Source: Eledone cirrhosa
Taxonomy: Eukaryota
Assembly (NCBI GenBank): GCA_964016885.1
Contig: OZ024743.1
Location: 103,168,001-103,232,000 of the forward strand
Direction: 5' to 3'
DNA: 64,000 bases
Below are positions 7,002 to 63,128 of the stretch, piece after piece. Every line of letters begins with the position of its first letter. Position 1 is the first letter of the stretch. A program made the translations under genes and the position numbers. The notes under the pieces are model-generated. The model searched no databases and had not been told where the DNA came from. It was given only the letters and a program-made list of their open reading frames with translations.

Positions 7002-10000
7002 GTTTTCTTTATTAACCACAAGGGTTTACATAAAGTAGACATTAAGGACAGTACAGGACAATACAGGACGGTACAAATGGGCATTTCTGCGTGTAAAAAA
7101 AACAGAGGAGGTAATAAAATAACAAAAAAAAATTCCCCAATAGGGGGGAGATTTCCGAGGGACATTTGTGGAGAAAGCCCATTAAAAGACCACAGTGACC
7201 CTGACCACCAGGGCAAGTGCCCTCTCCCAGTTTTCCACCTTTAATTTACAGACACATACTCAGAGAAGGCCCATTCATTCGGGCCATTCTTGCTTCTCTC
7301 ACCCATCTTTCAACAAAATGCTGGGAAGAGAGCACTTCCCTCTCTACCCTGATTTTCCTTTTCAAATGAAATTTGAAAAAGTTAATCAGGGCATCACCGA
7401 AGAGGTAAGTGCTCGTCTTCAGCCCTTTCAAACGTGTCCACCATACTATCTCTTTCGCCATGGCCACCAGACAGATAAAAACTGCCTGCCCTTCCCGGCT
7501 AAAGGAAGAGGGCGGGGCAATCCTCACGATGGACTCAGCTGATAGCTGGATCCGTCCTACCCGTGACAGCAGGTGTTCGACGTAAACCCACAAGTCAGCA
7601 ATGCTCGGACACTGGACGAGTGCGTGCAGGACGGTTTCGTCGCCCTGTGTGCATCTCGGACATGCCCGTCTGACGGCACCTCCATGCCTGTAGAGTTTAT
7701 CCCGAACTGGCAAAGCTCCTCGGTAGCACTGCCAGGCCAGGGATTTCTGGAAGTTGTCCATAGGCCCCGGCCCGAAAGTCCTTCTGAAGAGATTGGCTAG
7801 TTGATTTTCGTCGACGCCTAGAGTTTCTCCAAGTACGTCGTCGCTCTTCCCCTCCACTAATCCCCTATAGAACGCCAAGGTGGAGTTTCCACCGATCACA
7901 TTGCCCGATTGGTCGAGGGCTGTGAGCGCTTGAAGACATTCCAGTCTCCAAGCGCTCCCTCTCGGTCTTCGCTTGACCCAGGACTGCAGCTTCGTCAAGG
8001 AGACGAGCTGGGGAAAAACGTGTCTAGCAAACGGCGACCACACCTGATCACCGTCGAGGAAGAGGTGGAGATGTCGTAGCCTGAGCGCGTGTCTGCGCAT
8101 CATCAGCCACGGCATGCCCAGCCCTCCACGTAGCGGGTGTTGACAGCAGATGGACCGCCTGACCATCGGAGCGCGTCCTTTCCACAAGAAGCGAAAGAGC
8201 AAACGCTCCAGCGCAGTCAGGCAGGGCTTAGGACAAGGTACGACGGTCAGGCGGTACTAGATGACGGACGCGATATACGCGTTAGCCACCTACTCTCGAC
8301 CTTTCAGGGATAGCTTCCTCTCGGCCCATTTCTGGGTGAGAGAAGCCACCCTGCTCGTCACCTTGTCCTAGTTTTTGTCCGTCTGGAGGTCTGGACCGAA
8401 CCAGACCCCTAGCAATTTAACCGGTCCGTCCGTCCAGCACCCGACGACGCTGTTGGACGGCATGGACCTGCCTCTCCAGGTGCCGAGCTGCAGGCTCACT
8501 GACTTTTCCTGGTTGATCATTGCTCCTGTCACCGCTTCGTATTCTCTTAGTGTAGTGCCGATCGCCTCGATATGTTTGGCGTTCAACACCACTACGGTGA
8601 CATCGTCTGCATATGCTGACACGGATCTTCCGCATCCTAGTTCGCGCGGGACCCCCCTCAACGTCTCCAGTTTGTGCAGTAATGGCTCGAGAGTCAATAC
8701 GTACAATAGGGACGAGAGGGGACATCCTTGGCGGACCGAGCGCATGATGTTGAACGGTTCCGAAAGGTGACCGTTCACTCTCACTACAGAGCAGATATCG
8801 CTGTGCATGACAGCGATCCAGCCTCTGAAGACGGGCCCAAAGCCAGCCGCCCTCAGGACTGCCGCTAGGTAACGATGGTCGACCCTATCGAAGGCTTCGA
8901 CTGATCTAAATTAATCAAAGACCCACCCGTGCCAGGTTCCCTAGCTACCCTCTCTACGATGTATCGCATGAGGTGGAGATTGTCGTGGATGGATCTGTCG
9001 GGAATGGCGCATGTCTGTGCCTCTCCCACCAGACCACAAACGACTTGCGCCAACCTCTTTGCTAGCACCTTGGCCAAAATCTTGAAACCTGTGTTTAGCA
9101 GAGTTATGGGCCTAAAATTATCTATGTTATCCCCCTTGTTCGGATCCTTTCTCAGCAGCGCCACCGCTCCTCGGCTCACAGAGCTGGGAATTCTCCCGTT
9201 CTGTTGCCAGTTGCAGTAGACGTCCGCCAAGAGACCTCCGAAGAAGTCTGGCATTTGTACGTAAAGTTCATAGGGCAGACCATCCAAACCAGGCGATTTA
9301 CCCCTTGTGCAGCCAGTCATTGCCTCCCGTACTTCAGCGGTTGTTATCGGCTTTCGCAACACTCCGCCTCAGTGGCGAAAGCCTCGGCAGTCCGTGGAGG
9401 TAGACACTAAAGTCCATCCCTCGATCCGGCCCGCCACTGCCCCCGAACAGTTGAGCGAAGTGTCGCTGAAAAGCTTCACACATTTGCCCGGGATCGAGTA
9501 GCATGCGCCCGTCGTGGTCCACCAAAGACCGGATCGTGGATTTGTTGCCACGACGCGCCTCCGCCAATCGGGCCCATTGAATGGACTCTATTCTAATTGC
9601 TTTTCAGAGCAAACCACCACTTGTTGTTGACGATGGCCCCCGTCAACGCCCGCTTAACTAGTTCGCTAATCCGGTCTCTGTAGGCCTTGCGCGTAAGGAC
9701 GTGTTTAGCTTCCAGTAGCCGGGTCCTCGTCTATGAAGCCTATCTAAGTCAAGCACACAGATCACGAATTTGTGTCCGTGTAGCTGACTATCTTGAATTG
9801 TGGACAGCTTATGCTAGACCTATCTATTCCCCTACAAAATACTCTACTTAGTTATGATCTGGATGACCCTATGCGATTTGTCCAAGTCCACATTGGCACA
9901 TTCGGGAAATCCAATCGGTACCTGTCAGACAGTTCAAAACGCCTGAGCAGGTTGGTGAGACTCTTGCACCCTCCTCCCCTATCCGCTAATCCCACACAGT

Positions 10001-11269
10001 CCCAGCGTGCATCTAAGATCCCGTTCCAGTCGCCCACTAACACTAAAGAGCGGGACGTTCCAAGAAAGGTCTCCAGACGCCGGAAGAAATCGGGCCGCCC
10101 TGCTCCTGTCGGGGCATAGACGGCCACTAGCCTGAAAGCTTTTCCCGTCTCCGCTGGTCAGGTCCAGCACCACCAACTTACCTTCTGGGTCCAGGAAGAT
10201 GGCCGGTATGGCGAGATCCAAACCTCTCCGAAAAAGCACAGCAACTCCTCCCCCCGATCCCGGACGGCTGGGAGATGCGTACACATCGTAGCCGCCGAAG
10301 ATCGGTGTGAAGGCCCGTGCTTCGGAGATTCTTGTCTCGCTGATGGCCACTGACTTGAACAACACCGAAATGGTGCCGTACTGTCTGCCCCTCTCTATGT
10401 ACTGGGTGTCTTCTCTGATGCACCTCAGCGCGACTTCGACATCTTCTTGTGGGATTAAAGCTGACCTTTTGGTTTGTGCTGAGATGTATCTATAATGCAC
10501 CGTTTTGCGCGCCACTGCCTCAATAGCTTCTACCGGGACAGTTAAGTTGGCCCAAGTTTGCTCTTGCTTGATGAGCTTCCATGCCTGGGCCAACTTTTCA
10601 TCTTTGTTTGAGAGGTCCATGTTGAAGCATGGCCTCTTTTTTGCTGCTGCCGCAGCGAAAGTGTTCTTCATGTTTTCGTTGGGGGTTTTGTTGTCGTTGT
10701 TCTTGGTGGTGTTGTTGTTAGCACTGTCGCTGTTATCATTGTTGTCTTTGTTGCTACCGTTGTTCTCGGTGCAGTTGGTATTGTTACTGTTGGTGTTGTC
10801 GCTATTTGTTTTCATGTTAGTGGTGTTGATATTGTTGTTGTATTTGGTACTTTTTTTTTGTTATCTGTATTTTCGTTGTCACTGTTACTGTCATTTTTTT
10901 CAAAATTAGAGTTCTCATTGGTATCATTGCTGCATTTGTTTACATTGTTTGTGGTGATGTTTGTGTTATCAATGTGTGTTAATTTTGCTGTAGCGCTCCT
11001 CTCAACTTCTACGTCGTTGTCGCACGACAGCCGACATATACCTGGGGGGCGTGGCTCAGCCATGTTTTTTTTTCTTCGTAAATTTTTTAACATGTAAAAA
11101 AAAATTCAAATATTTGGGCCAAAAGGCCCAAATATTATACTTTCCCCTTCACGGGGCAAAGTCTAAGGGTTTATATCCCTTACGCAACAAGAAATATTTA
11201 ACAAAAAATAATTTTAACAGGCAAATAAAGCGACTTACTGTGAGCGAGCAAAATACGTCCGCTTAGACC
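7002..11269 (-). mobile_element. Tx1/L1-clade non-LTR retrotransposon (ORF1 + APE-RT-CCHC ORF2), both ends present, internal deletions
   Basis: APE motifs (SETR, VYAP, GDWN), RT (KSPGLDGLP, RQGCPLS, AYADD), CPRC..ETVLHALVQC, Asn/Thr-rich ORF1 start. The minus-strand 3' end is AATAAA followed by (ATT)n, and the 5' end GG abuts an ATT tract. Confidence 0.93.
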
Positions 11270-11299
11270 AATAATAATAATAATTGTTTCTACGTTAGG

Positions 11300-11303
<4 letters not shown>
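11270..11303 (-). mobile_element. SINE 3' tail remnant with (ATT)n tail
   Basis: tgtttctacgttaggcaca matches the SINE ends at 61460 and 62951. Confidence 0.75.
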
Positions 11304-14640: not shown

Positions 14641-15762
14641 TGCTGTGAGTCACTACGACGCCATTTAGGAGTTACGGGTTTATATGAAATTGTTATACTC
14701 AATAAAGATGCCAGATTGACTCTCGTTGTGTCCTCAGTTTTAAAAATGGTGCGTATTGTTCCGTATCCATTACCTCTATCAATGAAAAATATTTCCTACC
14801 ATGTCTCAGAGCGAGCTGACTCCAACTCTTTGAGAGGTAGAAGGAAAGTTCGCGTAACCTTTCCAATACACAATATTTTCTTTTTCCTTCGCCAAGAAAA
14901 CATATTCTGGCAGAGAGCCGGCTGTCATATAAGCAAAATATTCTATACTTTTCGGCAAAATGTATCATATCTAAAATGTTTTCCCCTTTAAGCAGTGATT
15001 CTCAATCCTATTCTTTTTTATTTCCTATGGAGCCCTTTCATACCTATTTCAAAGCGAAAGATGCTGTCGGAGTTACGTTTACTAATGTCATTGTTTCTTG
15101 TCATGTCTTCACCATGGTGGATTTTTAGGCATTAAATTGCCCCATAAATATGTGGTTATTATTAGTTGGTCCCTTGATTGTTAGGTTTTTATTTCATATC
15201 TTCAAATCTACTTTCAAATCATTTCGCCATGGTGGTAATGGCAAAAACTATTTCAAACCTTCTAACTAAAATCATTTCAGATAAAAGAACCAGTAAATTA
15301 GGCAATTAACTAAAATTATTAAAGCTTCCAGATAATGAACTAGATGTTTTAAACAATATCTATATAATTAATTACCTATACTAACATGTCTTTCAGCAGC
15401 AAATAATCTTACCTTTTCAGAAAGATGAAGAACATTAGTTATATCACTCGATGATACTCATAGATAAGAAATATCTGCAATTAGGAATTAATATTTCTAC
15501 TACATTTACACTCCAAGACAATCGTCATATTCTGAGTAATAGTGACCAATATTTCTAAAATACCAACATTTAATGAATATTATTTTATTGGGGTTTGCAG
15601 TTACCTCTATACTAACTCACATATGGTTTTGAAATGATATACTTTATATTTTATATTTCAGATATAACTGCTTTCTTCGACATTTAGTTTTGACACGAAA
15701 AGAAGTGTCTTACTCTCTTGGATTAACTCTTGATTTTGGTATTACAAAGTAGTTCCTACTTA

Positions 15763-18700
15763 ATGGAGCGTAATACTGTTTTCCGAGGATTGGCTCTTCG
15801 ACCTGAATTTACAAGCCCATATAGTGGCAATATTCATGAAAACGGTCACTTCTTTATGAGAGATTGGTCATTTAATCCACAAAATAGAGGATCTTATTTC
15901 CATTCACCCTATCGAACAGAAATGCTTACGTCTCCAAATCATTGTGATCTTATGGGTTCTGTATATTTTAACACAAATATGATTCCTTATTCACGGCATA
16001 TACAACTTTTACCGAAGAATAATGCAATTGAATTCCCTTCTACTCATAACTCTTATAGCAATACATACTCATCTGTTGCTCCTCTAAGTCAAATTGGAAT
16101 AAATAACAATCCTATAGAAAGTATGTTTTACCCGAAATATAAAAACCCTTTAAAATACTTTTCCTACGTTATTAATGATGGCATTGTAAAACAACCACAT
16201 GCAGTTCAACCAAACAAGGATGCAGAAACACGCACTATACATTTCTGGAGATCATTCATGAATGAAGAGACATCAAATTCTACGTCGATAGAAAGTGAGA
16301 AAAGTAACTATGATGAGAATCAACAAAATAACCATAAAGCGTATTCAAATGATAATCATTCTGAAAACTGTAATGAAATACAGATGAAAAATAAATGTGA
16401 AAATTTAAATAATATCTATAATATATCTCCAAATTATTCAAGGCAAGTAAAAGATACACAAATTTTGTCTGCTGAAAGTTATAATAAAAACAAAGAGGAT
16501 AGAATCTTAACAATGACAAAAACTACTGACTTACTTCGAGCAGCAAGAAAAGAATGTGATTCTGAGGAGCCAGTAAACTTAGTTGTCCCTAATATTCGAA
16601 ATTCTGAGGAGGAAGTTGATTGTAAAATATGTAATTACTATGAGTCTCCCCAATCAAACACTAAAACGTCGAGTTTATTATCGACAATACTACTAAATGA
16701 AAACAACAAATCTTTATCTTCTCCAGCTAGTGAAAATGTAGCACGGAAGATTCTGAGAACCCCCGAGCTACAAGTGAACAATAATCCATGGCAACGGAGT
16801 ATGAAGGAAATAAATATGTCTCCATCAAATGGAAATGATAATATGAATAGAAGTATTGAAGAAGAGGCGCTAGATAATAATTTACACTTAGCATCAGATA
16901 AGAACATATATGAAAGCATGCATTATCAACCAACAAAATATACTTGGAGCACTAAAGCTATGATTTCTAATGAATATAGATCCCATAGAAATATTGGTCA
17001 TGATGAACAGCATCGTAATAATTTAAAATTGTCAAACGTGAATGTAAATGAAATGAATAACATTATAAATAATCAGTTAAAAAACTTCCCTTTTAATTCC
17101 AACCATACAAAAAACACTAGTTTAGAAGAAAAATTTAGATATGATAAGCATAATGAGCATGAAAAATTAATTGTCAGGGATCCTTCATCACATAATGGAC
17201 ATAAAAACATGGATTCTTATTGTAGTTCGGTTAATTTTACGAAATATAAAATGAATTATTGCGAAAATAAAATAGAAGTACCGCTGAATATTAGAAACAA
17301 TCAAATTGCCAATTGCAGTGGAAAGACGATTAGATATGATAAACAAATTGTATGTTCGATCCAAAGATCAAATGATAATCCCAATATCAATTTTGAAAAG
17401 GCTGCGATATCTCGTTCAGTTGAAGAGATTCGCCAGAATCAAATACTAAATAAAGTGCCAGACAAAACGTTTTCGGGGAATGAAAGTTCGGCTCGAAGTT
17501 TTCATGCAATTAATATAGAGACGAATACAGAAAAGTATCGCACAATATATTCGGCAAACGCTTGTCATAAGCTAAACGAAAATCCTTCTCTGAACGCCAT
17601 GATGGATAATAAATTGTACAAGCCAAAGCCAATACAACCAAATTCCTCTTACTCTAGTTTTCTGCTAACAAATCAGAATTATAGAAGGAATGGCGAACAA
17701 CGAAACACAGACTCAGAAAGGCAGCATTCTAAAGAGATACTTCTTAAATTAAATAATCACCCACAACATGAAAAGAAAATGTATTCCAGTGAAAATATAT
17801 CTGAGTCTGAAAATGTCGTCAACAAACACATGTTAAATATGAAAAGTAATGATTTGCAAAATAAATTTATGCACAAGAAAAACAAAGTAGTTAATTCTGA
17901 AAGCTCATCCTTACAATGTGTTTACTGTGATAAAATATTCTCTTCAACTACATTATTGAAAGAACATTTGAAGTCACATCCAGCCAATTCTCCCTATCTT
18001 TGTCCTCACTGCGATTTGAAATTTGCCTCAAAACCAAGATACATGCGACATGCACTGAAACACACTAAAGAGAAACCATATTGCTGTGAACAATGTCATA
18101 AATGTTTTACAACAGTTACCGCTTTCCATAGACATCTTCATACAAAAAGACATTCTGGTAGTAATTTATCAACTTGTAAGCAGTGTGGTCTATCGTTCAT
18201 CGATAATATATACATGAGTTTACACTTCAAAACACATACAGGTGAACATCCATTCCAGTGCGATATATGTGGAAATATATTTGCATGCAAGAACAATTTG
18301 AAAAATCATATCATGACTCATACAGGTGAGAAACCGTTCCAATGTGTTCATTGTGCTAAAAGATTTGTTACTAAGTTTTCATTAAACGTTCACACTAGAA
18401 CACACACTAAAGATTACCCATATAGTTGTAAGGTTTGTAAGAAAACGTTCTTGTGTAGTTCCAACATGACAAGTCATATGAGAAGACACACAGGGGAAAA
18501 AAGACATCAATGTTATAAATACGGTAAATTCCTTTCTAGTTTGTCGGGCATTCAAGGACATCAAAGGACTCACACAGGAGAATGCTCCTATAGTTGCAAT
18601 ATCTGTAAAAGTTCCTTCGCCAGTAGGTTCTCTTTACGAATTCACAAACGAACCCATTCTGATGAGAATCCACATCGGTGCTCTTATTGTAACAAAAGAT

Positions 18701-18933
18701 TTTCTAATAGTTCAAATATGCGTCGACATCTTCGAATTCACACGGGAGAACGGCCATATAGCTGTACATACTGTACAAAATCATTTTGTAGCAGCACTTA
18801 CCTGAAATCTCATGTCAGAACACATACAAGAGAAAAACCGTATAAATGTAAATATTGTGGCAAAGAGTTCTCGAACACACTGTGTTTCAAACAACATGTT
18901 ACTAATCACGAAAGAAAAGCGTCAAATCCCTAA
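15763..18933 (+). CDS. C2H2 zinc-finger transcription factor: 12 tandem fingers after a long Asn/Ser-rich N-terminus, single coding exon
   Basis: Uninterrupted ORF with first ATG at 15763. Twelve CxxC-x12-Hxxx(xx)H fingers with TGEKP-type linkers, finger 8 being CxxY. Splice acceptor ttttatatttcag ends at 15661. AATAAA sites near 19110, 19132 and 19306. Confidence 0.93.
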   Translation: MERNTVFRGLALRPEFTSPYSGNIHENGHFFMRDWSFNPQNRGSYFHSPYRTEMLTSPNHCDLMGSVYFNTNMIPYSRHIQLLPKNNAIEFPSTHNSYSNTYSSVAPLSQIGINNNPIESMFYPKYKNPLKYFSYVINDGIVKQPHAVQPNKDAETRTIHFWRSFMNEETSNSTSIESEKSNYDENQQNNHKAYSNDNHSENCNEIQMKNKCENLNNIYNISPNYSRQVKDTQILSAESYNKNKEDRILTMTKTTDLLRAARKECDSEEPVNLVVPNIRNSEEEVDCKICNYYESPQSNTKTSSLLSTILLNENNKSLSSPASENVARKILRTPELQVNNNPWQRSMKEINMSPSNGNDNMNRSIEEEALDNNLHLASDKNIYESMHYQPTKYTWSTKAMISNEYRSHRNIGHDEQHRNNLKLSNVNVNEMNNIINNQLKNFPFNSNHTKNTSLEEKFRYDKHNEHEKLIVRDPSSHNGHKNMDSYCSSVNFTKYKMNYCENKIEVPLNIRNNQIANCSGKTIRYDKQIVCSIQRSNDNPNINFEKAAISRSVEEIRQNQILNKVPDKTFSGNESSARSFHAINIETNTEKYRTIYSANACHKLNENPSLNAMMDNKLYKPKPIQPNSSYSSFLLTNQNYRRNGEQRNTDSERQHSKEILLKLNNHPQHEKKMYSSENISESENVVNKHMLNMKSNDLQNKFMHKKNKVVNSESSSLQCVYCDKIFSSTTLLKEHLKSHPANSPYLCPHCDLKFASKPRYMRHALKHTKEKPYCCEQCHKCFTTVTAFHRHLHTKRHSGSNLSTCKQCGLSFIDNIYMSLHFKTHTGEHPFQCDICGNIFACKNNLKNHIMTHTGEKPFQCVHCAKRFVTKFSLNVHTRTHTKDYPYSCKVCKKTFLCSSNMTSHMRRHTGEKRHQCYKYGKFLSSLSGIQGHQRTHTGECSYSCNICKSSFASRFSLRIHKRTHSDENPHRCSYCNKRFSNSSNMRRHLRIHTGERPYSCTYCTKSFCSSTYLKSHVRTHTREKPYKCKYCGKEFSNTLCFKQHVTNHERKASNP

Positions 18934-33668: not shown

Positions 33669-35497
33669 GGTTTCTTTATTGGCCACAAGGGCTGACACGA
33701 AGAAAAACATTAGAGCCGGCACAGAACAGTATAGGACGATACAAAGTGGGTTTTGGTCGCGTAAACTGTTTATAACAAAATCAGGCTAGAAATCAATTCA
33801 AACAACAAAAATTCCCCAAGAAGGGGGAAACCTCCGAGGGTCACTCGTGTTGAAAACCACACAAAAGACTACGGCCACCCTGACCACCAGGGCAAGCGCC
33901 CTCTCTCACTTTTCCTACTCTTCAGTCTACAAGCGTATACTCAGAGCGGGCCCGTTCACTCGGACCAGACTCGCCACTTTCACCCACCTTTCAACAAACT
34001 TACTAGAAGACAGCACTTGCCTCTCCACCCTGATTTTCCTCTTCAAATGAAACTTGAAAAAGTTAATCAGGGATTGGCCGGAGAGGAAAGTGTCCGTCTT
34101 CAACCCTTTCAACCTTGTCTACCACACAATCTCTTTCGCCATGGCCACCAGGCAGATCAAAACTGCCTGCCCTTCCTCCTCTTTAAAGGAGGATGGCGGG
34201 GCTATCTGCACAATGGACTCAGTCGAAAACCGGACCCGTCCTACACGCGACAGCAGCGGTTCGACATAGCTCCACAAGTCAGCAATCCTCGGGCACTGAA
34301 CGAGTGCGTGCAGGACGGCTGACAGCACCTCCATGCCTGTAGAGTTTATCTCGAACCGGCAACGCTCCTCGGTAGCACTGCCAGGCCAGGCATTTCTGGA
34401 AGTTGTCCATAAGCCCCGGTCTGAATGTTCTCTTGAAGAGAGCGAACAGCTGATCGTCTTCGACGCCCAGGGTCTCCCCGAGAACATCGTCGCACTTTAC
34501 ATCCACTAGCCCTCTATAGAATGCCGAGGTGGATGTTCCACCGATACTAGTGACCAGCTGGTAGAGGGCGGTGAGTGCTAGGAGACATTCCAGCTTCCAA
34601 GCTCTATCCCTCGGTCTTTTCCTGATCTAGGACTGCAGCTCCGTCAAGGAGACGAGCTGGTGAAAAGCGCGTCTGGCAAACGGCGACCACAACTGTTCAC
34701 CGTCAAGGAAGCACCAGAGATGACGCAGCCTAAGCGCATGTTTGCGCATCATTACCCACGGCATGCCTAGACCTCCACGCAACGCGTGTTGACAGCAAAT
34801 GGATCGTCTGACCATGGGAGTACGTCCCTTCCACAAAAAGCGGAAGAGAAGGCGCTCCATTTTGGTCAGAGTTGGGCGGGGGCAGGGTACGATGGTCAGG
34901 CGGTAGTAGATGACGGACGCGATATACGCATTCGCCACCTCCGCCCGACTTTTCAGAGACAGCCTACTCTCTGCCCATTTCTGGGTGAGAGAGGCCACTC
35001 TGCTCATCACCTCGCTCCAGTTTTTCTCCATCTGGAGGTCCGGACCGAACCAGACCCCGAGCAATTTAACCGGTCCTTCCATCAGCGCCCCACGACACTG
35101 TCGGACGACATGGACTTGAGCTCCAGGTGCCGAGTTGGAAGCCCACCGAATTTTCCTGGTTTATCTTCGCTCATGTGACCGCTTGGTATTCCTTGAGAGC
35201 GGTGCCGAGCATCTGGACATGTTTGGTGCTCGACACCACCACGGTGACGTCGTCGGCGTAAGCTGTCACGGTTCTCCCGCATCCCAGTTCGCGTGGGAAC
35301 CCCCCCCCCCCCATCGTCTCCAATTTGTGCTGTAACGGCTCTAAGGCCAGTACGTACATGACGGACGAGAGGGGGCAACCCTGGCAGACCGAGCACATGA
35401 TGCTGAAAGGCTGCGACAGATGACCATTAACCTTAACAATCGAGCAGATGTCGCTGTGCATCGCAGCGAACCAGCTCCTAAAAACGGGCCCGAAGCC
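33669..35497 (-). mobile_element. Tx1-type element, 3' part of ORF2 and 3' UTR, degenerate
   Basis: QGCPLS, AYADD, GGLGMP, LHALVQC. 3' end aataaagaaacc-(att)n. Confidence 0.9.
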
Positions 35498-38400
35498 GTC
35501 CTACACGTGACAGCAGGTGTTCGACGTAAACCCACAAGTTAGCAATGCTCGGACTCTGGACGAGTGCGTGCAGGAAGGTTTCGTGGCCCTCCGCGCATCT
35601 CGGACATGCCCAGCTGACGGCACTTCCATGCCTGTAGAGTTTATCCCGAACTGGCAAAGCTCCTCGGTAGCACTACCAGGCAAAGGATTTGTGGAAGTTG
35701 TCCATGAGCCCCGGCCCGAAAGTTCTTTGGTAGAGATTGGCTAGTTAATTTTCGTCGACGCCTAGGGTTTCCCCAATTCCGTTGTCGCTCTTCCCCTCCA
35801 CTAATCCTCTATAGAACGCCAAGGTGGAGTTTCCACCGATCACATTGCCCGACTGGTCAAGGGCTGTGAGCGCGTGAAGATATTCCAATCTCCAAGCGCT
35901 CCCTCTCAGTCTTCGCTTGACTCAGGACTGCAGCTCCGTCAAAAAGATGAGCTGGGGAAAGACGCGTCTAGCAAACGGCGACCACACCTGATCACCGTTG
36001 AGGAAGAGGTGGAGATATCGTAGCCTTAGCACGTGTCTGCGCATCATCAGCCACGGCATGCCCAGCCCTCTACGTAGCGGGTGTTGACAGCAGATGGACC
36101 GCCTGACCATCGGCGCGCGTTTCTTCCACAAAAAGCGAAAGAGCAAACGTTCCAGCGCAGTCAGGCGAGGCTTAGGACAAGGCACGACGGTCAGGCGGTA
36201 GTAGATGACGGACGCGATGTACGCAAATGCCACTTCTTCTCGACCTTTCTGGGATAGCTTCCTCTCTGCCCATTTCTGGGTGAGAGAAGCCATCCTGCAC
36301 GTGATCTGGTCCCAGTTTTTGTCCGTCTGGAGGTCCGGACCGAACCAGACCCCTAACAATTTAACCGGTCCGTCCGTCCAGCGCCCGACGACGCTGTTGG
36401 ACGTCATGGACCTGCCTCTCCAGGTGCTGAGCTGCAGGCCCACAGACTTTTTCTGGTTGATCATTGCTCCTGTCACCGCTTCGTACTCTCTTAGTGTAGT
36501 GCCGATTTCCTCGATGTGTTTGGCGTTCGACACCACTACGGTGACATCGCCTGCATATGCTGACACGGATCTTCCGCATCCTAGTTCGCGCGGAAGCCCC
36601 CTCAACGTCTTCAGTTTGTGCAATAATGGCTCGAGAATCAATACGTACAAGAGGGAGGAGAGGGGACATCCTTGGTGGACCGAGCGCATGATGTTGAACG
36701 GTTCCGAAAGGTGACCGTTCACTTTCACCACAGAGCAGATGTTGCTGTGAATGGCAGCGATCCAGCCTCTGAAGACGGGCCCAAATCCAGCCGCTCTCAG
36801 GACTGCCGCCAGATAACTAAATTGATCAAGGACCCACCCATGCCAGGTTCCCTAACTACCCTCTCCACGCTGTATCGCATGAGGTGGAGGTTGTCGTGAT
36901 TGGATCTGTCTGGAATGGCGCATGTCTGCGCCTCTCACACCAGACCACCAACGACAAGTGCCAACCTCTTTGCTAGCACTTTGGCCAAAATCTTGAACTC
37001 TGTGTTTAGCAGAGTTATGGGTCTGAAATTATCTATGTTATCCCCCTTGTTCGGATCCTTTCTCAGCAGCGCCACCGCTCTCCGGCTCACAGAGCTGGGA
37101 ATTCTCCCGTTCTGTTGCCAGTTGCAGTAGACGTCCGCCAAGAGGCCTCCGAACAAGCCTGGCATCTGTACGTAATATACATAGGGCAGACCATCCAAAC
37201 CAGGCGTTTTACCCCATGTGCAGCCAGTCATTGCCTCCCGTACTTCAGCGGCTGCTATCGGCTTTTCGCAACACTCCGCCTCAGTGGGCGAGAGCCGCGG
37301 CAGTCCGTCGAGGTAGGCACTAAAGTCCATCCCTCTATCCGGCGCGCCGCAGCCCCCGAACAACTGAGCGAAATGTCGCGAGTAGCATGCGCCCGTTGTG
37401 GTCCACCAAAACCGGATCGTGGCTTTGTTGCCACGACGCGCCTCCGCCACTCGGGCCCATTGAACGGCTTTCATCCCGTCGTTTCTGAGAGCACGCACCC
37501 TAACTCTGACAACGGAGCCTTCGTGCTTTGCATTGAAGGATTGGTCAAAGGCCAATTTCGCCGCAAGTACGTCGGTCGCGATGCCTTTACTAAGCGCCTC
37601 GTCTAATTTTCTAACTAGTTCTCCCTCTGCTCTAATTTTCTCTATTGCTAAAGCCTTACTAAACCTAATGGACTCTATTCTAATCGCTTTTACAGAGCAA
37701 ACCACCACTTGTTGACGATGGCCCCCGTCAACGCCCGCTTAACTAGTTCGCTAATCCGGTCTCTGTAGGCCTTGCGCGCTGTTAATGACACGTTTGCTTA
37801 CAGTAGCCGGGTCCTTGTCTATGAAGCCTATCTAAGTCAACCTCACAGATCACGAATCTGTGGGTCGTGTAGTCGACTATTTTGAAATGTGGACAGCCTA
37901 TGATAGACCTATCTATTTCCCTACAAAATACCCTATCTAGATATGATCTGGATGACTCGATACGGTTTGTCCATGTCCACATTGGCACATTCGGGAAATC
38001 CAGACGGTACCTGTCAGACATTTGAAACCGTGTGAGCAGGTTTGCGAGTCTTTTACAATCTCCTCCCCTATCCGCTACCCCTACACAGCCCCAGCGTGCA
38101 TCTAAGTTTCCGTTCCAGTCGCCCACTAACACTAAAGAGCGTGACGTTCCAAGAAAGGTATCCAGACGCCCGAAGAAATCAGGCCACCCTGCTCCTGTCG
38201 GGGCATAGACGGCCACTAGCCTGAAAGCTTACCCGTCTCCGCTGATCACGTCCAGCTTCACCAACTTACCTTCTGGGTCCAGGAAGATGGCCCGTATGGC
38301 GAGTTCCAAACCTCTCCGAAAAAGCAGAGCAACTCCACCCCCGATCCAGGACGGCTGGGAGATGCGTACACATCGTAACCGCTGAAGATCGGTGCGAAGG

Positions 38401-40473
38401 CTCGGGCTTCGGAAATTCTGGTCTCGCTGTTAGCCACCACATCTATCGTTCAGCAGATGGCCCTGCTACCATGACGATCCCAGGCCACGCGCATTTATGC
38501 TGCCTATTCTGAGTGAGGTCATGTTGAAAAGGAGTGGGAAAAGATGGGAAATACCACTTACCTCACTTCTCGTAGAGGAAGGATGGTTCATCCATCCTTC
38601 TCACTGCCTGTTGCCTCCTCCGAAAGAATGTCCTTATAAATCCTCCTGGAGAGTGTTTGTCGGGGAATTTTTGTTTTAGTGTCGTGTGCGTTTTCTGTGT
38701 GGTGCGAGTGATTTGTATGTGTGGAAGTGGTGTGAATTTTTGGGGCGTTGTGTAGTCTTTTTCTGTGGTGCTGGTGCTGTGTTGGATGTAGTGTAATAAT
38801 TGGTTGTTGTTCAAATGTAATGCTGTGTAGTGTGTATAGTTTCGGTTGTTTTGTTTTGTTTGCTTTGTTGTGGGTTTGTTTCTGTTTCGGTTTTTGGTGA
38901 TTTTTGTGGTGTTAGTGATGGTGGTGTTGGGGTTAATGATGGTGATGGTGTTGGTATTTGTGGTGATGGGGCTGGTGGTGTCTTAACTTTTTTGCTTGTT
39001 TGATTATTTGTTTCCCCCTGAATTTTGTTTTTGGAGGGCTAAGGAAGAGGAATTTTTCTTTTTGGGGTTCTTTTTTCTTTTTCTTTTTTCCTGATACCAT
39101 TTCCCACTCCTCCTCGTCACAATTTGTCTCCTGTTGGGATAGGCCGGGGAGTGGAAAATCCTCCACAGTCGTTGGTTTTGGTTGTGTTGTGGTGGTGGTG
39201 GATGGTGGAAGGTGGGTTCCTGCGACACAAACGACACTGCTAGGTATTCTACCCTCAACGATTACGGTGAGGTGACTGCTGTCATTCAGGTCTATCACCT
39301 TTGGAATTTCCTCAATGTTTTTTGGTCCGCTTGGATCAGGAGCTCCATCCCAGATCCGGACCAGTTCTCCTGCTTTTCTTTTGTTACCTCAATTATTTTC
39401 GTGTAGGCCTCGATGCCGGCGGGGACGGCCGCCATTAGCCATGGCCGGCGGAACGTGGGTCACCCTGATCTTCACGAGTCTCTGACCACAATAACTTGGG
39501 ACGAGTATGAATTCGTCACTTCTTAATGGGACCATGGAGTGCTCTCTGGCTTCCTGTGGGGTTCCAAAGATCATGTCCACGGTTCGATATTTCTGCCCAC
39601 GTCTGATGTGGGTTTTTTCTCCCACACATGTCCCAAAGCTTTTTTGTATTTGGGACTCGGATGCGCGTTCCACTCGGCGTGATTTTGTGTTTATCGTCCG
39701 ATATGACACGGTGCATAAGCGCCGATGCTCCATTTTATTAGATGGGGGAGGGGGTTAGGCTGACCATGTACCCATCTTGTTTTACCATTCTCTTGGCTTC
39801 ATTTAATTCATCCTGGCTTACCTCGATTATTTCGCTTTTCTTGGCTGCTTTGGCAAACGACACATTTTGTTTTGCGGTGTTGATTTTGTTGTTGTTGCTG
39901 TTGTTGTTGCTGTTGTTGTTATTGTTAGTTTTGTTATTGTTATTTTAGTTTCAGTTGTGGTGGTGGTGGTGTCAGTGGTGTTCAGCGTGGAAGAGTCGAT
40001 TCTGGGTGAATCCATTTCGATGTCACCAGATAATTTATTTGTTTTTGTTTCTGTTGTCGATGTGGTAGGGGTGGCGGCTTTAACACCTGCAGCTATTGGT
40101 AATGGCGGGAAATGAATGTCTGCATGTGACAAATTTAAATTATTGCCACTGCTTATATTTTTAGTGTTGGCAACTGTAGTAATATTTACAATGCTTGTGT
40201 TGGTGTGAGGTGTTAGTTTGTGGGGAAGGCTGTCAGATTTGTGTGGCTGAGAGCCGTCCATGTTTTTTCAAAGAAAGTTTTTGTTTGATAATTATAAAAG
40301 TTTAAATTTTGGGCTCAAGGCCCCAAATCTTTTAGTGTCCTTTTCAGAAAGCAATATATGTGAACTTATAAACACCTAACAACAAAAATATTCCATAACT
40401 GGCAATTTGAAACAACTGAAAACAACAAACCTTTGCGGAACTCACGATAATACGATTTCCTACGTAGGTCGCC
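35497..40473 (-). mobile_element. Tx1-type element with 5' UTR, ORF1 and ORF2 but lacking its own 3' end, degenerate
   Basis: ORF1 remnants at 40261-38563, ORF2 ATG near 38523 (MTSLRIGSINARGL), APE and RT closely similar to 7550-10350. The 5' GG abuts (ATT)n. Confidence 0.9.
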
Positions 40474-40503
40474 AATAATAATAATAATTATTATTATTAT
40501 TAT

Positions 40504-43500
40504 TTCATTTATTAGCCACAAGGGCCGACATGTAGGGGACAATACAAAGACAAGGACAGTGGGGGTTTACAATAAGGTCGAGTAAAGGTGCACAATAGCA
40601 AGGCTAATTTAACAATGAAGATATACAAAAATATAAAATAAATTATGCATAAATATAAGAAAATAAATTCCCCTATAGGCGGTGGACGACCCAGGTGTGA
40701 CTCACGTACCCCACCAATCCTGCACCACACTGCGCTTCTAGGGCACCCAGGGAGAGCACCCCTCTCCTCAAGTTAGCTAGCCTATAGGCGCATGGTCAGA
40801 GTAGGCCCATTCACACGGGCCATTCTCGCCACGTTCATCCACCTTTTAGCAAATGTACTGGGGGGCAGCACTTCACTCCCCACCCTCACCTTCCTTTCCA
40901 GGTGAAACTTGAAGAAGTTGATGAAGTATTGGCCGAAGAGAAAAGTGTCTGTCTTCAGTCCTTTTAATCCGGTCCACCATATAACCACTTTTGCAACGGC
41001 CACCAGACAGATGAAAATTGCCTGCTCTTCCTGACCTAAGGAAGGCGGCGGGTCGATCTTCACTGTGGCCTCGGCCGATAGCCGGATCCGTTCTACACGC
41101 GACAGTAGCTGTTCGACATAACGCCACAAGTCAGTAATGCACGGACATTGGACAAGTGCGTGCAGAACGGTTTCGGCGCTCTGTGCGCATCTTGGACAGG
41201 TTCGTCTGACAGCACTTCCGTGCCTGTAGAGTTTATCTCGAACCGGCAGTGCACCCCGGTTGCACTGCCAAGGGAGGGATTTCTGGAAATTGTCCATCGT
41301 CCCCGGCTCGAAAATCCTCCGATACAGACTGGTCAATTCGACTTCGTCGAGGCCCAAAGCTTCTCCGAGTGCGTCATCGCACTTGCCCACCACTAATCCT
41401 CTATAAAACTCGAGAGTGGAAGTTCCACTGATCGCATTTCCCGCTTGGTAGAGGGCAGTGAGGGACTGACAACATTTCAGGTGCCAGTCACCCAATCTCG
41501 GTCTCTTCTTGACCCAGGACTGCAGCTCAGTCAAAGAAACGAGCTGCGGAAAGGCTCGCCTGATAAACGGCGACCACCCCTGTTCACCGTTTAGGCAGAA
41601 TATCTTGAGAAGTCGCAGCCTCAGCGCATGTCTGCGCATCATTAGCCACGGCATGCCCAGCCCTCAACGTAGAGGGTGCTGGCAGCAGATGGACCGCCTC
41701 ACAAACGGAACTTGTCCTTCCTACAAGAATTTGAAGAGGAGCCGTTCCAACTTGACGAGGCGTGGACAAGGCACGACGGTCAGGCGGTAGTAGATGACGG
41801 ACGCGATGTACGCATTCGCCACTTCCGCACGACTTTTCAGTGATAGCTTCCTCCCAACCAATTTTTAGGTGAGACTGGTTACTCTGGTCATTACCTCCTC
41901 CCAATTCTTTTCCACCTGGTGGTCTGGTCAGAACCAAACCCCAAGCAACTTTACCGGTCCGTCCGTCAAGCGCCCCACGACGCTGTTGGACAGGCATAGG
42001 CTTGACTCTCCAGGTTCCGAGCTGCAAGCCCACCGACTTTTCCGGATTAAGTTTGGCTCCTGTCAACCTTTCATATTCCTTCAATAAGGTGCCGACCACC
42101 TCGATTTCTGAGGTGTCCGACACCTTCACGGTGATGTCGTCCGCATAAGCCGACATCGCCTTTCCACGCCCCGGTTCGAACGGCATGCCCTGCAACAGCT
42201 CCATCTTCCGCAGTAAAGGCTCGAGAATCAATACGTACAGAAGGGAAGAGAGAGCGAACCCTTGATGGACCGATCGGGAGAGCCAAAATGGTTCGGAGAG
42301 GTGGCCATTAACCTTGACCACCGGGCGTGTGCCGCTGTGCATTGCAGCGATCCAGCTTCTGAAGACAGGGCCGAAGCCAGCTGCTTTGAGGAAAAATTCC
42401 AGATACTGATGGTCGACCCTATCGAATACTTTCGATTGATCTAAATTGATCAGTGCCCCACCGAAGCCAGGTTTACCCCCTACCCTCTCTATGATGTATC
42501 GCATGAGGTGGAGATTCTCCTGTATGGACCTGGCTGGGATTGCGCAAGTTTGCGCCTCCCCAACCAAATCCTCAACGACAACCGCCAATCTCTTTACTAA
42601 CACCTTGGCCAAAATCTTAAACTCTGTGTCGAGCAGCATTATGGGCCTGAAGTTGTCTAATGTATCCCTCTTGTTCTCGTCTTTCTTTATCAGCGTCACC
42701 ACTCCCCTGCTCACAGAACTGGGAATACTCCCATTCTGCTGCCAGTTGCAGTAGTGTGCTTCAAAGAGATCGGAGAACAAGTTTGGCATATTTACGTAAA
42801 GATCGTAGGGCAGGCCATCCAAACCGGCTGACTTGCACCTCATGCAACCGACAAGGACGTCCTGAATTTCGGCTGAAGTAATCGGCCATTCGCAGCGCTC
42901 AGCGTCGACCGTCGAGATGCGCGGCAAGCCGTCAATGTAGGGACTGAACTCCGCTACTCTCTCTGACTCGCCACTCTCCCCGAACAACCGAGCAACGTGC
43001 TGGCGAAAAGCCTCACACATCCGCTTGGAATCGATTATCTCATGTCCGTCTCGGTCCGCCAAAGTCTGAATTATGGTTTTATTACCACGCTGCGCCTCCG
43101 CCACGCGGGCCCATCGAACAGCTTTGGTTCCCTCGTTTCTCAGCGCACGCGCCTTACCTCTGACAATGCAATCTTCGTGTTTCGCATTGAAGAAATAGTC
43201 CAATGCCATTCTCGCCGTTAGCACGTCAGTTGCAATACCACTACAAATAGCCTCGTCTAACTTATCTACCAGCCTATCTACAGATCACAAATGTGTGATC
43301 TGAATAGGCGACCGTTTTAAAAAGTGGGCAGCCCACACTATTTCTATCTATTTTCCTAATGAACATCCTGTCTATATACGATCTAGATGACCACATGTGG
43401 TTGGTCCATGTCCATACTGGCGCATTGGGGAAATCTAGTCGATACCTCTCAGACAGTTGGAACTGGCTGATTAGGTGCTTGAGGCTTTTGCACCCCCCGC

Positions 43501-44048
43501 TCCTATCAGCTACTCCCAAACAATCCCAGCGTGCGTCTAAGATGCCATTCCAGTCCCCCGCTAACAGTAAAGGGCGAGACGTACCCAGAAAGGTCTCCAT
43601 ACGTCTAAAGAAGTCAGGTCGTCCAGCCCCTGTAGGGGCGTTGACGGCCAGCAGTCTAAAGACACCACCATCGCTACTGTTCACATCAAAGACCACCAAC
43701 TTACCGTCCGGGTGCCGGAAGATCGACCTTACCTCGAGATCCAGTCCTTTCCTAAACAGCACTGCCACCCCACCTCTCATTCCCGGCCTGCTAACAGACG
43801 CGAAGATCTGATAGTCGTCGAAAATGGGGGCTAGTGCGCGCGTGTCGGAAATTCTGGTCTCGCTGACGGCAATCACATCCATTTCCAGCGACCTGAGGTC
43901 GTTGAGCAAGCGACCCTGCTTCCAGGGTGACCCCAGGCCGCGAACATTTAAACTTCTTACTCTTAATATGGCCATGTTGGCAAGCTAAAAGAGAGAGGGA
44001 AGGTTTACTTACCTCCCTCCTTATGTGTGGTGGGTGTACGTTCATGGA
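40504..44048 (-). mobile_element. Tx1-type element of a different subfamily, ORF2 plus 3' UTR, 5'-truncated
   Basis: 43274-43975 encodes APE (LNVRGL, SETR, GDWN, IDR, SDH), 41584-43224 RT, 40782-41654 C-terminus with CPRC..HALVQC. AATAAA followed by an AAT/ATT tail. Confidence 0.92.
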
Positions 44049-54900: not shown

Positions 54901-55794
54901 GAAGGAACTCCTCGAGAGATATTCCATGTGCGATGTCACTGACAAAACACCTAGATGTGATAACAAGTGCAGACTCTGCAGAACTAACATCGAGTATATC
55001 ACCCATGTCATCAACAGCTGTCCAAAGATGTCATCGCGGTACTATCTACCTATGAGGCGTGATGTAGTGGCCAAAACACTGTACAGTGCAGTTCGTAAAA
55101 AAGATAGCCCCGATAATAAACACATTAAAAGCTACAGCAATGTGGAAGACATCCATGTACATAATATGAAAGAGTACTGGTGGAATGTTCCAGTAAAAAC
55201 CCCCAATAAAATGCAGGCATAACAGACCAGATATTATGATATGGGACAGGGAGAAGAAAGCATGCACAGTAGTGGAAATTAGCTGCCCAGCAGATGCCAA
55301 TATAATATCAAAGATTAGTGAAAAGAACATTTATGCAGAACTGATGAGAAATCTGCAGATACTCCACCCTGATTACACCTTCAGATTTATGCCTGTGATT
55401 ATTGGGGCACTGGGGTATGTTAGTAATTGCCTCAATACAAATCTAGAGAAGCTAGGCTTCACAGGAACAGAAAGAACACAACTAGTTAGGAAATTACAAG
55501 TACAATCCATTAATGGAACAGTAAAAATATGTAAGACATTCCCAAAATGTTGCATCTAATAACTGCATATACACATATACAGATGTAAAGCATATACACA
55601 TGCATAGATACAACTCAAAACATACACATCCACACATAAAATAACATCCATATCTACACATGCATGCATACATACATACCTCCCTAGTTGATGTTGTGTA
55701 AATTCCAATGAGAGAGTCTTGTGTCTATGTTAGAAACTGACTCTCTCTATTGATACAACTTTGTGAAATTATAAAACCAAAAGAACATACATAC
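51941..55794 (+). mobile_element. Related but distinct R4-clade element, degenerate, with CATA tail
   Basis: N-terminal GYMNRMKLHWDEMHPEL..QLRQQA, RT (WLDYRKAFDS, FFVDDLKL), CRLC..HVINSC, VEISCP. Internal deletion near 54950, 3' hairpin gagagagtc/gactctctc, end aacatacatac. Confidence 0.9.
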
Positions 55795-61454: not shown

Positions 61455-61459
<5 letters not shown>

Positions 61460-61640
61460 GGTTTCTACTTTAGGCACAAGGCCAGCAATTACCCAGTGCA
61501 TTACTGGTACTTTATTTTATCGACCCCGTAAGGATGAAAGGCAAAGTCAACCTCGGCGGGATTTGAACTCAGATCGTAATGGGATGTAACTATGCTGGAA
61601 AGCATGGCGTCCGACCCTCTACCGATACTGCCAATCCACC
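61455..61640 (-). mobile_element. tRNA-derived SINE with Tx1-like 3' end
   Basis: Minus strand: tggcagtatcggtagag (A box), gagttcaaatccc (B box), tttgcctttcatcc..gtcgataaaat, end ccttgtgcctaaagtagaaaccatta. Confidence 0.88.
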
Positions 61641-62939: not shown

Positions 62940-63128
62940 GTAATAATAACTGTTTCTACTTTAGGCACAAGGCCAGCAATTACCCAGTGCATTACTGGTA
63001 CTTTATTTTATCGACCCCGTAAGGATGAAAGGTAAAGTCAACCTCGGCGGGATTTGAACTCAGATCGTAAAGGGACGTAACTATGCTGGAAAGCATGGCG
63101 TCCGACCCGCTACCGATACTGCCAATCA
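62940..63128 (-). mobile_element. tRNA-derived SINE with Tx1-like 3' end and TTA tail
   Basis: Near-identical to 61455-61637, end agtagaaacagttattatta. Confidence 0.88.

What the first reader, a model, noticed from the sequence alone, without database searches (positions are those of the whole stretch)
61455..61485. An abundant SINE carries the 3' terminus of the Tx1-type LINE: candidate SINE-Tx1 partnership
Seen: on the plus strand the SINE end taatggtttctactttaggcacaagg (about 61456) aligns without gaps to the Tx1 end taatggtttctttattggccacaagg (about 33665) at 21 of 26 positions. The same gtttc...cacaagg frame appears, with small variations, at the Tx1 ends near 7002 and 40504 and the SINE ends at 62951 and 11285 (truncated). 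Both classes end in (ATT)n instead of poly(A). Known: a shared 3' tail marks a SINE-LINE pair. L1-group enzymes are generally thought to recognise poly(A) rather than a specific tail, so sequence-specific Tx1 partners are uncommon. Inference: this Tx1 family recognises a short terminal signal and mobilises the SINE.
Basis: partly seen in the sequence, partly recalled or inferred. Interest (0 to 1): 0.75.

Follow-up and report, generated by a model that had tools for sequence, protein, structure and literature searches.

The report
Octopus SINE mimics Tx1 tail hairpin
A very abundant short jumping element in a probable octopus genome ends in the same predicted small RNA hairpin as a family of Tx1-like retrotransposons and inserts at the same five-letter site, so those retrotransposons likely copy it, a kind of pairing so far reported for their group mainly in plants and algae.

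Summary
The 21-of-26 match is real, but the elements lie on the minus strand and the count is inflated: four matches are target DNA and one is a private base. The ATT is the start of a 10-21 bp target-site duplication, not a tail. With it removed, consensus SINE ends match five Tx1-like families at 12-17 of 22 bases in exact 3' register (best p about 1e-4). Nine other LINE families (RTE, Dong/RLE, CR1, RNase H types) give 5-10. The shared core is a predicted 3-bp hairpin with a CUUGU loop, 16 nt before the junction, with two compensatory changes. SINE and the ATT-type Tx1 families share the ATTAT junction, the duplication length and overlapping ages. Against: the hairpin is thermodynamically unremarkable, SINEs use isolated ATTAT sites (19% in ATT tracts versus 85% for Tx1), the Tx1 label could not be tested against named references, and no mobilisation was shown. 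Verdict: likely a SINE-Tx1 partnership with a minimal 3' signal, a new variant of a known kind; not found in my paper searches. The scan reported the same pairing earlier on another piece of this genome (e1-9580941).

The parts
61460..61640 (-). SINE copy 1: A-box and B-box-like head, central domain, 22-nt Tx1-like end
   Evidence: A/B boxes read by eye from the sequence; ARAGORN and Rfam give no tRNA hit
61473..61483 (-). predicted SINE tail hairpin GGC-CUUGU-GCC
61456..61459 (-). ATTA: start of the target-site duplication, not part of the SINE
   Evidence: family-level test
62951..63127 (-). SINE copy 2 (96.7% to copy 1); GTTATT stands on both sides, a target-derived variant of ATTAT
11285..11303 (-). 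19-nt SINE end remnant next to the 5' ATT tract of Tx copy A
7002..11269 (-). Tx1-like LINE, family A (stem AACC/GGUU), flanked by (ATT)n on both sides, 3' end in the (AAT)n tail of an RLE LINE on the plus strand
33669..35495 (-). 3' part of a Tx1-like LINE, family B (stem GCC/GGC), joined upstream to another Tx copy (35496-40473)
33682..33692 (-). predicted Tx family B hairpin GCC-CUUGU-GGC, followed by AATAAA
40502..43984 (-). Tx1-like LINE, family C (APE endonuclease, RT, zf-RVT; stem GGCC/GGCU), head-to-tail in front of the copy starting at 40473

Best explanation
This tRNA-like SINE is likely copied by the ORF2 protein of the ATT-targeting Tx1-like LINEs, which would recognise a predicted minimal CUUGU hairpin that both RNAs carry 16 nt before the insertion junction. 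Shown: shared 22-nt end in exact register, shared ATTAT junction and duplication length, overlapping ages, two compensatory stem changes. Inferred: Pol III read-through transcript; hairpin binding; endonuclease nick on the bottom strand at ATAAT/R (top strand Y|ATTAT); priming from the ATAAT 3' end, possibly paired with read-through AUUAU; second nick 10-21 nt downstream. No poly(A) appears at the Tx junctions although AATAAA lies 7-8 nt upstream, so reverse transcription would start at a fixed internal position, not on poly(A).
For: 3'-anchored identity of consensus ends over 22 nt: young SINE 13-16 and old SINE 12-17 against five Tx families (p 5e-5 to 0.02), 5-10 against nine other families (p at least 0.12); same ranking at 30 nt. 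SINE duplications: 37 analysable of 242 ends, 31 with ATTAT on both sides, 3 with the same deviation on both sides, median 16 nt, preceding base C 26, T 10, A 1; background ATTAT 0.3%. Genome-wide 122,531 of 147,173 exact SINE ends (83%; denominator omits ends followed by T) are followed by ATTAT; 10,353 Tx ends are. Tx duplications in non-simple sites: 7 among 118 ends plus L156, mostly 16-21 nt (one 10), all starting ATTAT, none with extra ATT units on the 3' side. In 800 kb of evenly spaced sample the only RT-linked family seen ending at ATTAT was Tx (part of that output was cut). Hairpin: inner three pairs kept in 14 of 14 family representatives, C-G to G-C in SINEs, G-C to A-U in family A; slid controls lower. 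Median divergence from majority: SINE T-variant 3.3% (n=23), Tx family A 3.4% (n=18). Loop-specific, stem-tolerant recognition is shown for ZfL2-1/2 (PMC4176376, passages).
Against: Folding energies are no better than shuffles (z -0.83 to +0.76), and in 60-nt context the hairpin is absent from the minimum-energy fold of the SINE and of family B. Covariation rests on about two independent events; the fourth pair holds in 6 of 14 rows. SINE copies with the compensated Tx-type stem number 4 against 1.5 expected from single changes (469, 395), P=0.07: no enrichment. No Tx end carries the SINE stem (5 hits, all SINEs). The last 15 nt of the young SINE are not significantly similar to any Tx family and lack AATAAA. 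Target stringency differs: 8,812 of 10,353 Tx ends (85%) but 23,488 of 122,531 SINE ends (19%) continue as ATTATTATT. TATC-targeting Tx families match the tail as well (15-16 of 22), so the tail alone does not name the family. The 22-nt window was chosen after seeing the match.
Confidence: 0.6

Rival explanations
1. The Tx1-like LINEs do mobilise the SINE, but by pairing of read-through AUUAU with the nicked target (or relaxed capture); the hairpin is a relic of an old tail capture or serves 3' processing.
For: Weak folding energy; no enrichment of compensated SINE variants; Tx1-Mar is thought to mobilise SINEU on the evidence of shared target and age alone (PMC4494074, section 16).
Against: Stem pairs are kept with double changes across Tx lineages that differ in target and between SINE and Tx; AUUAU is common in RNA, so pairing alone would not single out this SINE.
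Confidence: 0.2
2. An unsampled or extinct LINE (a rarer Tx subfamily with looser targeting, or an L2, Rex1 or Nimb-type element) is the true partner.
For: SINE and Tx differ in use of ATT tracts; no Tx end has the SINE stem orientation; my LINE survey covers about 1 Mb of fetched sequence plus targeted searches, not a full library; bivalve studies warn of sibling-lineage misassignment (PMC11481361, passages).
Against: A pattern for the SINE-type stem without the SINE's upstream bases gave 185 hits genome-wide; of 30 inspected, 18 had a SINE core, 10 more were units of one SINE-tail tandem array, 1 was a SINE with an internal deletion and 1 unassigned, none LINE-linked. CR1 (24 ends) and two RNase H families do not match. 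The SINE is young, so its partner should be visible.
Confidence: 0.13
3. The SINE tail derives from, or is served by, the RLE-type LINE whose 3' UTR hairpin loop resembles it.
For: That loop matches the old SINE tail at 17-18 of 22, as well as or better than Tx.
Against: The match lies 47-49 nt inside the LINE end, within a long stem (z -6); the family ends in (CATA)n, not ATTAT; anchored identity is 8-10 of 22.
Confidence: 0.03
4. The tail similarity is chance and the shared ATTAT reflects AT-rich target preference of unrelated enzymes.
For: Only 22 nt, chosen after the fact; A-rich last half.
Against: Exact register at the junction, p about 1e-4 at 22 and 30 nt, same cut position to the base, similar duplication lengths; other families have distinct junction repeats.
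Confidence: 0.04

Closest known systems
SINEU and Tx1-Mar of crocodilians (PMC4494074; passages and section 16 read)
   Same: A SINE assigned to a Tx1 group by shared target and concurrent age.
   Different: SINEU has snRNA heads and a poly(A) tail and targets a Mariner element; the passages read report no shared 3' tail. Here the head is tRNA-like, there is no poly(A), the target is ATTAT and the terminal 22 nt are shared.
Stringent L1-clade pairs ZmSINE2/3 with LINE1-1_ZM and SINEX-3_CR with L1-1_CR (PMC3472496, PMC3747384; passages and Table 1 read)
   Same: L1-group LINE sharing a conserved 3' hairpin with a SINE, with variable stem and conserved loop.
   Different: Plants and a green alga, about 45-80 nt of conserved end; here an animal, a target-specific family, about 22 nt and a 3-bp stem. 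Table 1 lists no Tx1 partner.
UnaL2/UnaSINE and ZfL2-1/2 stem-loop recognition (PMC4176376; passages read)
   Same: Loop-specific, stem-tolerant 3' signal as the working model.
   Different: L2 clade, tested experimentally; the octopod hairpin is only predicted and covarying.
Microsatellite-targeting Tx1 families Kibi (TC)n and Koshi (TTC)n (as described in PMC4494074 passages)
   Same: Insertion into simple repeats, head-to-tail arrays.
   Different: Targets here are (ATT)n and, in a sister clade, (TATC)n.

Membership tests
tRNA-derived SINE | [quoted passage not shown] | tested here: met
   About 180 nt; 141 core hits in 800 kb; 147,173 exact tails; A/B-box-like motifs by eye; no ARAGORN or Rfam tRNA hit
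tRNA-derived SINE | Variable-length target-site duplications | tested here: met
   50 of 89 ends with a repeat of 9 nt or more, 36 non-simple, 9-23 nt
tRNA-derived SINE | Pol III transcription | not testable with these tools
   No listed holder on record as RNA
Deu/Nin-domain SINE superfamily | Central domain homologous to the Deu/Nin consensus | not tested
   Resemblance recalled only; no reference consensus was reachable. tRNA-Deu and tRNA-Core are named as the main octopus SINEs (PMC8967140 passages)
L1/Tx1 group LINE | APE endonuclease, RT and C-terminal zf-RVT in one ORF, L1-like endonuclease | tested here: met
   Pfam PF03372, PF00078, PF13966; best solved relative of the endonuclease is human L1 EN, E 3e-5
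Tx1 clade | RT phylogeny groups with named Tx1 elements | not testable with these tools
   No named Tx1 among homologues; tree holds only unnamed relatives and an Argonauta protein
Tx1 clade | Target-sequence preference | tested here: met
   85% of ATTAT-type ends continue as ATTATTATT; sister clade at (TATC)n
Stringent SINE-LINE pair | Shared 3'-terminal sequence in register | tested here: met
   16-17 of 22 with family B, short compared with the 35-61 bp at 72-95% of bivalve pairs (PMC11481361 passage)
Stringent SINE-LINE pair | Conserved 3' stem-loop with compensatory changes | tested here: inconclusive
   Two compensated pairs, but ordinary energy and no enrichment of compensated SINE copies
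Stringent SINE-LINE pair | Same insertion signature and concurrent activity | tested here: met
   Same junction and duplication length, overlapping divergence; tract preference differs
Stringent SINE-LINE pair | Tail required for mobilisation in trans | not testable with these tools
   Needs a retrotransposition assay

The most novel reading that the evidence does not exclude
An animal Tx1/L1-group reverse transcriptase recognises an 11-nt pentaloop hairpin instead of poly(A), starts at a fixed point inside its RNA, and through that minimal signal drove one of the largest SINE expansions in octopods; the SINE reaches scattered ATTAT sites that the LINE itself rarely uses because it carries less target-pairing RNA.
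Probability: 0.4. Interest if true: 0.7.

Novelty: new variant of a known kind. Interest (0 to 1): 0.5.

Why it matters
Surveys found only three SINEs with L1-clade tails, all in plants or algae, and proposed that stringent 3' recognition is ancestral in the group (PMC3472496). An animal, target-specific member with a hairpin-bearing SINE partner would test that idea and give a very small signal to dissect. It would also name the engine of a SINE with well over 140,000 copies in a lineage where SINEs are the main repeats and partners are not assigned in the papers read.

Tried and rejected
(ATT)n as an RNA-templated tail: rejected, deviations are copied on both sides and no ATT units are added. 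A SINE subfamily with a direct Tx tail: 205 pattern hits; the 100 listed were mostly truncated Tx inserted behind a SINE or scattered double mutants. A Tx family ending in A like the young SINE: 95 hits, read as point variants. Compensated SINE variants as a sign of selection: not enriched. RTE, Dong/RLE, CR1 and RNase H-type partners: no in-register match; one exception, RLE_Y against the young SINE at 38 nt, p=0.019. An L2/Crack-like protein query found nothing (not evidence of absence). Naming the clade through homologues, cluster members and the protein Atlas failed. No RNA holder listed. Laying contigs of three more distant coded organisms showed the SINE core and tail region covered with no listed change inside the hairpin, a weak hint; laying them on the Tx end showed no SINE joined to a longer Tx tail. 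One alignment had a row on the wrong strand and was redone.

Full report
Setting. The window lies in a 3.0-Gb animal genome. ORF2 relatives from Argonauta hians at 69% identity point to an octopod (inference). All elements named in the finding are on the minus strand.

Observation. The two 26-mers match at 21 of 26. Read 5' to 3', the SINE ends GGCCTTGTGCC(T/A)AAAGTAGAAACA and family B of the LINE ends GCCCTTGTGGCCAATAAAGAAACC; both are followed by ATTAT. The 61456 copy has C at the last base where 88 of 89 sampled SINE ends have A. The SINE is abundant: 141 core hits in 80 evenly spaced 10-kb stretches and 147,173 exact tails genome-wide. The LINE end pattern occurs 18,769 times.

ATT is target. 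Of 242 SINE ends, 205 were dropped (107 simple flanks, 88 without a single anchor, 10 tandem). In the other 37 the duplication was anchored on bases 6-12: 31 have ATTAT on both sides, 3 have the same deviation on both sides, 3 differ; median length 16 nt (floor 12 by method), preceding base C 26, T 10, A 1. A second method gave 9-23 nt. For the LINE, 118 ends gave 9 candidate rows; one was a duplicate and one a SINE, leaving 7, plus L156. Lengths are 10-21 nt, all start with ATTAT and none has more ATT units on the 3' side. Near full-length copies mostly have (ATT)n on both sides. In the window, the LINEs sit in (AAT)n tails of restriction-like-endonuclease LINEs of the opposite strand.

Tail similarity without the target. 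Majority ends were compared in register with up to 2 nt of shift. Over 22 nt the young SINE scores 14, 16, 13, 15, 14 and the old SINE 16, 17, 13, 16, 12 against Tx families A, B, C and two TATC-type families (p 5e-5 to 0.02); two RTE, two Dong-like and two other RLE families score 5-10. CR1 (24 ends) and two RNase H-bearing families score 7-10. The ranking holds at 30 and 38 nt, with one RLE exception at 38 nt (p=0.019); at 15 nt the young SINE is not significant against any family. The signal is therefore mostly the hairpin region. One unanchored look-alike exists: the loop of a long hairpin in an RLE LINE matches the old SINE at 17-18 of 22, but 47-49 nt inside an end that carries (CATA)n. 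The family labels RTE, CR1, Dong are mine, from domain content and recalled motifs; the same clades are listed as recently active in O. vulgaris (PMC13282606, first third of text).

Hairpin. All 14 family representatives keep three pairs around a five-base loop (CUUGU in the SINE and ATT-type Tx; CUGGU, CUAGU, CCUGU in some TATC-type families). Energies are ordinary, and in 60-nt context the SINE and family B fold otherwise. Compensated SINE copies number 4 against 1.5 expected.

Which Tx. TATC-type families form a supported subclade (100/99) within the octopod group and share the tail, so the target selects the ATT-type families. Ages overlap: median 3.3% from majority for the SINE T-variant (n=23), 6.7% for the A-variant (n=44), 3.4% for family A (n=18); B and C had only 4 unbiased copies each. 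Nested insertions are common: 13 of 80 Tx ends are followed by a SINE within 70 nt and truncated Tx copies follow SINE ends. A real difference remains: 85% of Tx ends but 19% of SINE ends lie in three or more ATT units. One explanation, untested, is that Tx RNA is cleaved downstream of its AATAAA inside the ATT tract and so carries a longer target-pairing stretch.

Mechanism. Inferred from target-primed reverse transcription as known for LINEs: nick at bottom-strand ATAAT/R, hairpin-bound RNA positioned so that copying starts 16 nt after the loop, second nick 10-21 nt downstream. The LINE has an APE endonuclease whose best solved relative is human L1 EN, an RT and a zf-RVT, so it is in the L1/Tx1 group; Tx1 proper rests on target specificity, since no named reference was available.

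Prior knowledge. Three SINEs with L1-clade tails were known in a survey of 58 pairs, from maize and Chlamydomonas (PMC3472496 passages; PMC3747384 passages and Table 1). SINEU is assigned to Tx1-Mar by target and age and has poly(A) (PMC4494074 passages and section 16). Mollusc SINE partners reported are CR1, CR1-Zenon, L2 and Nimb (PMC11481361, PMC4824008, PMC4758252 passages). PMC8967140, PMC3899998 and PMC3531059 passages name no octopus partner. Eight searches found no octopus SINE-Tx1 pair; Repbase and closed supplements may hold one.

Verdict. Observation real but overstated; partnership with Tx1-like LINEs about 0.8 likely, hairpin as the signal about 0.6. New variant of a known kind; interest 0.5.

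Noticed in passing
window about 55705-55748 (+); L081, L084, L118, L189, L238: RLE-type LINE with a strong 3' UTR hairpin (z -6) whose loop matches the old SINE tail at 17-18 of 22; tail (CATA)n. Unexplained look-alike.
   Followed up: partly
L061, L090, L099, L106, L133, L139, L140: A second tRNA-like SINE shares about 100-140 nt at about 80% with the 3' end of an RTE family ending in (GAT)n: an ordinary SINE-RTE pair in the same genome.
   Followed up: partly
L075, L078, L086, L122, L196-L225: Sister Tx clade inserts at (TATC)n/(TA)n and varies the loop (CUGGU, CUAGU, CCUGU) while keeping the stem.
   Followed up: partly
L262-L284: Young, abundant CR1-type family with many intact frames of about 1076 aa, ending in (TAAAAGAG)n next to (TA)n.
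   Followed up: partly
window 33669-43984 and L141-L160: Tx ends finish in C before ATTATT and so recreate the preferred C|ATTAT site, which may drive the head-to-tail stacking; the young SINE ends in A instead.
   Followed up: no
L308-L319: A 37-bp tandem array made of the SINE tail plus its duplication (at least 12 units).
   Followed up: no
window 15727-18933 (+): 1068-aa open frame with many C2H2 zinc fingers.
   Followed up: no
L290, L291, L293, L296: Rare RNase H-bearing LINE family that ends at its stop codon next to A- or (AAC)-rich tracts.
   Followed up: no
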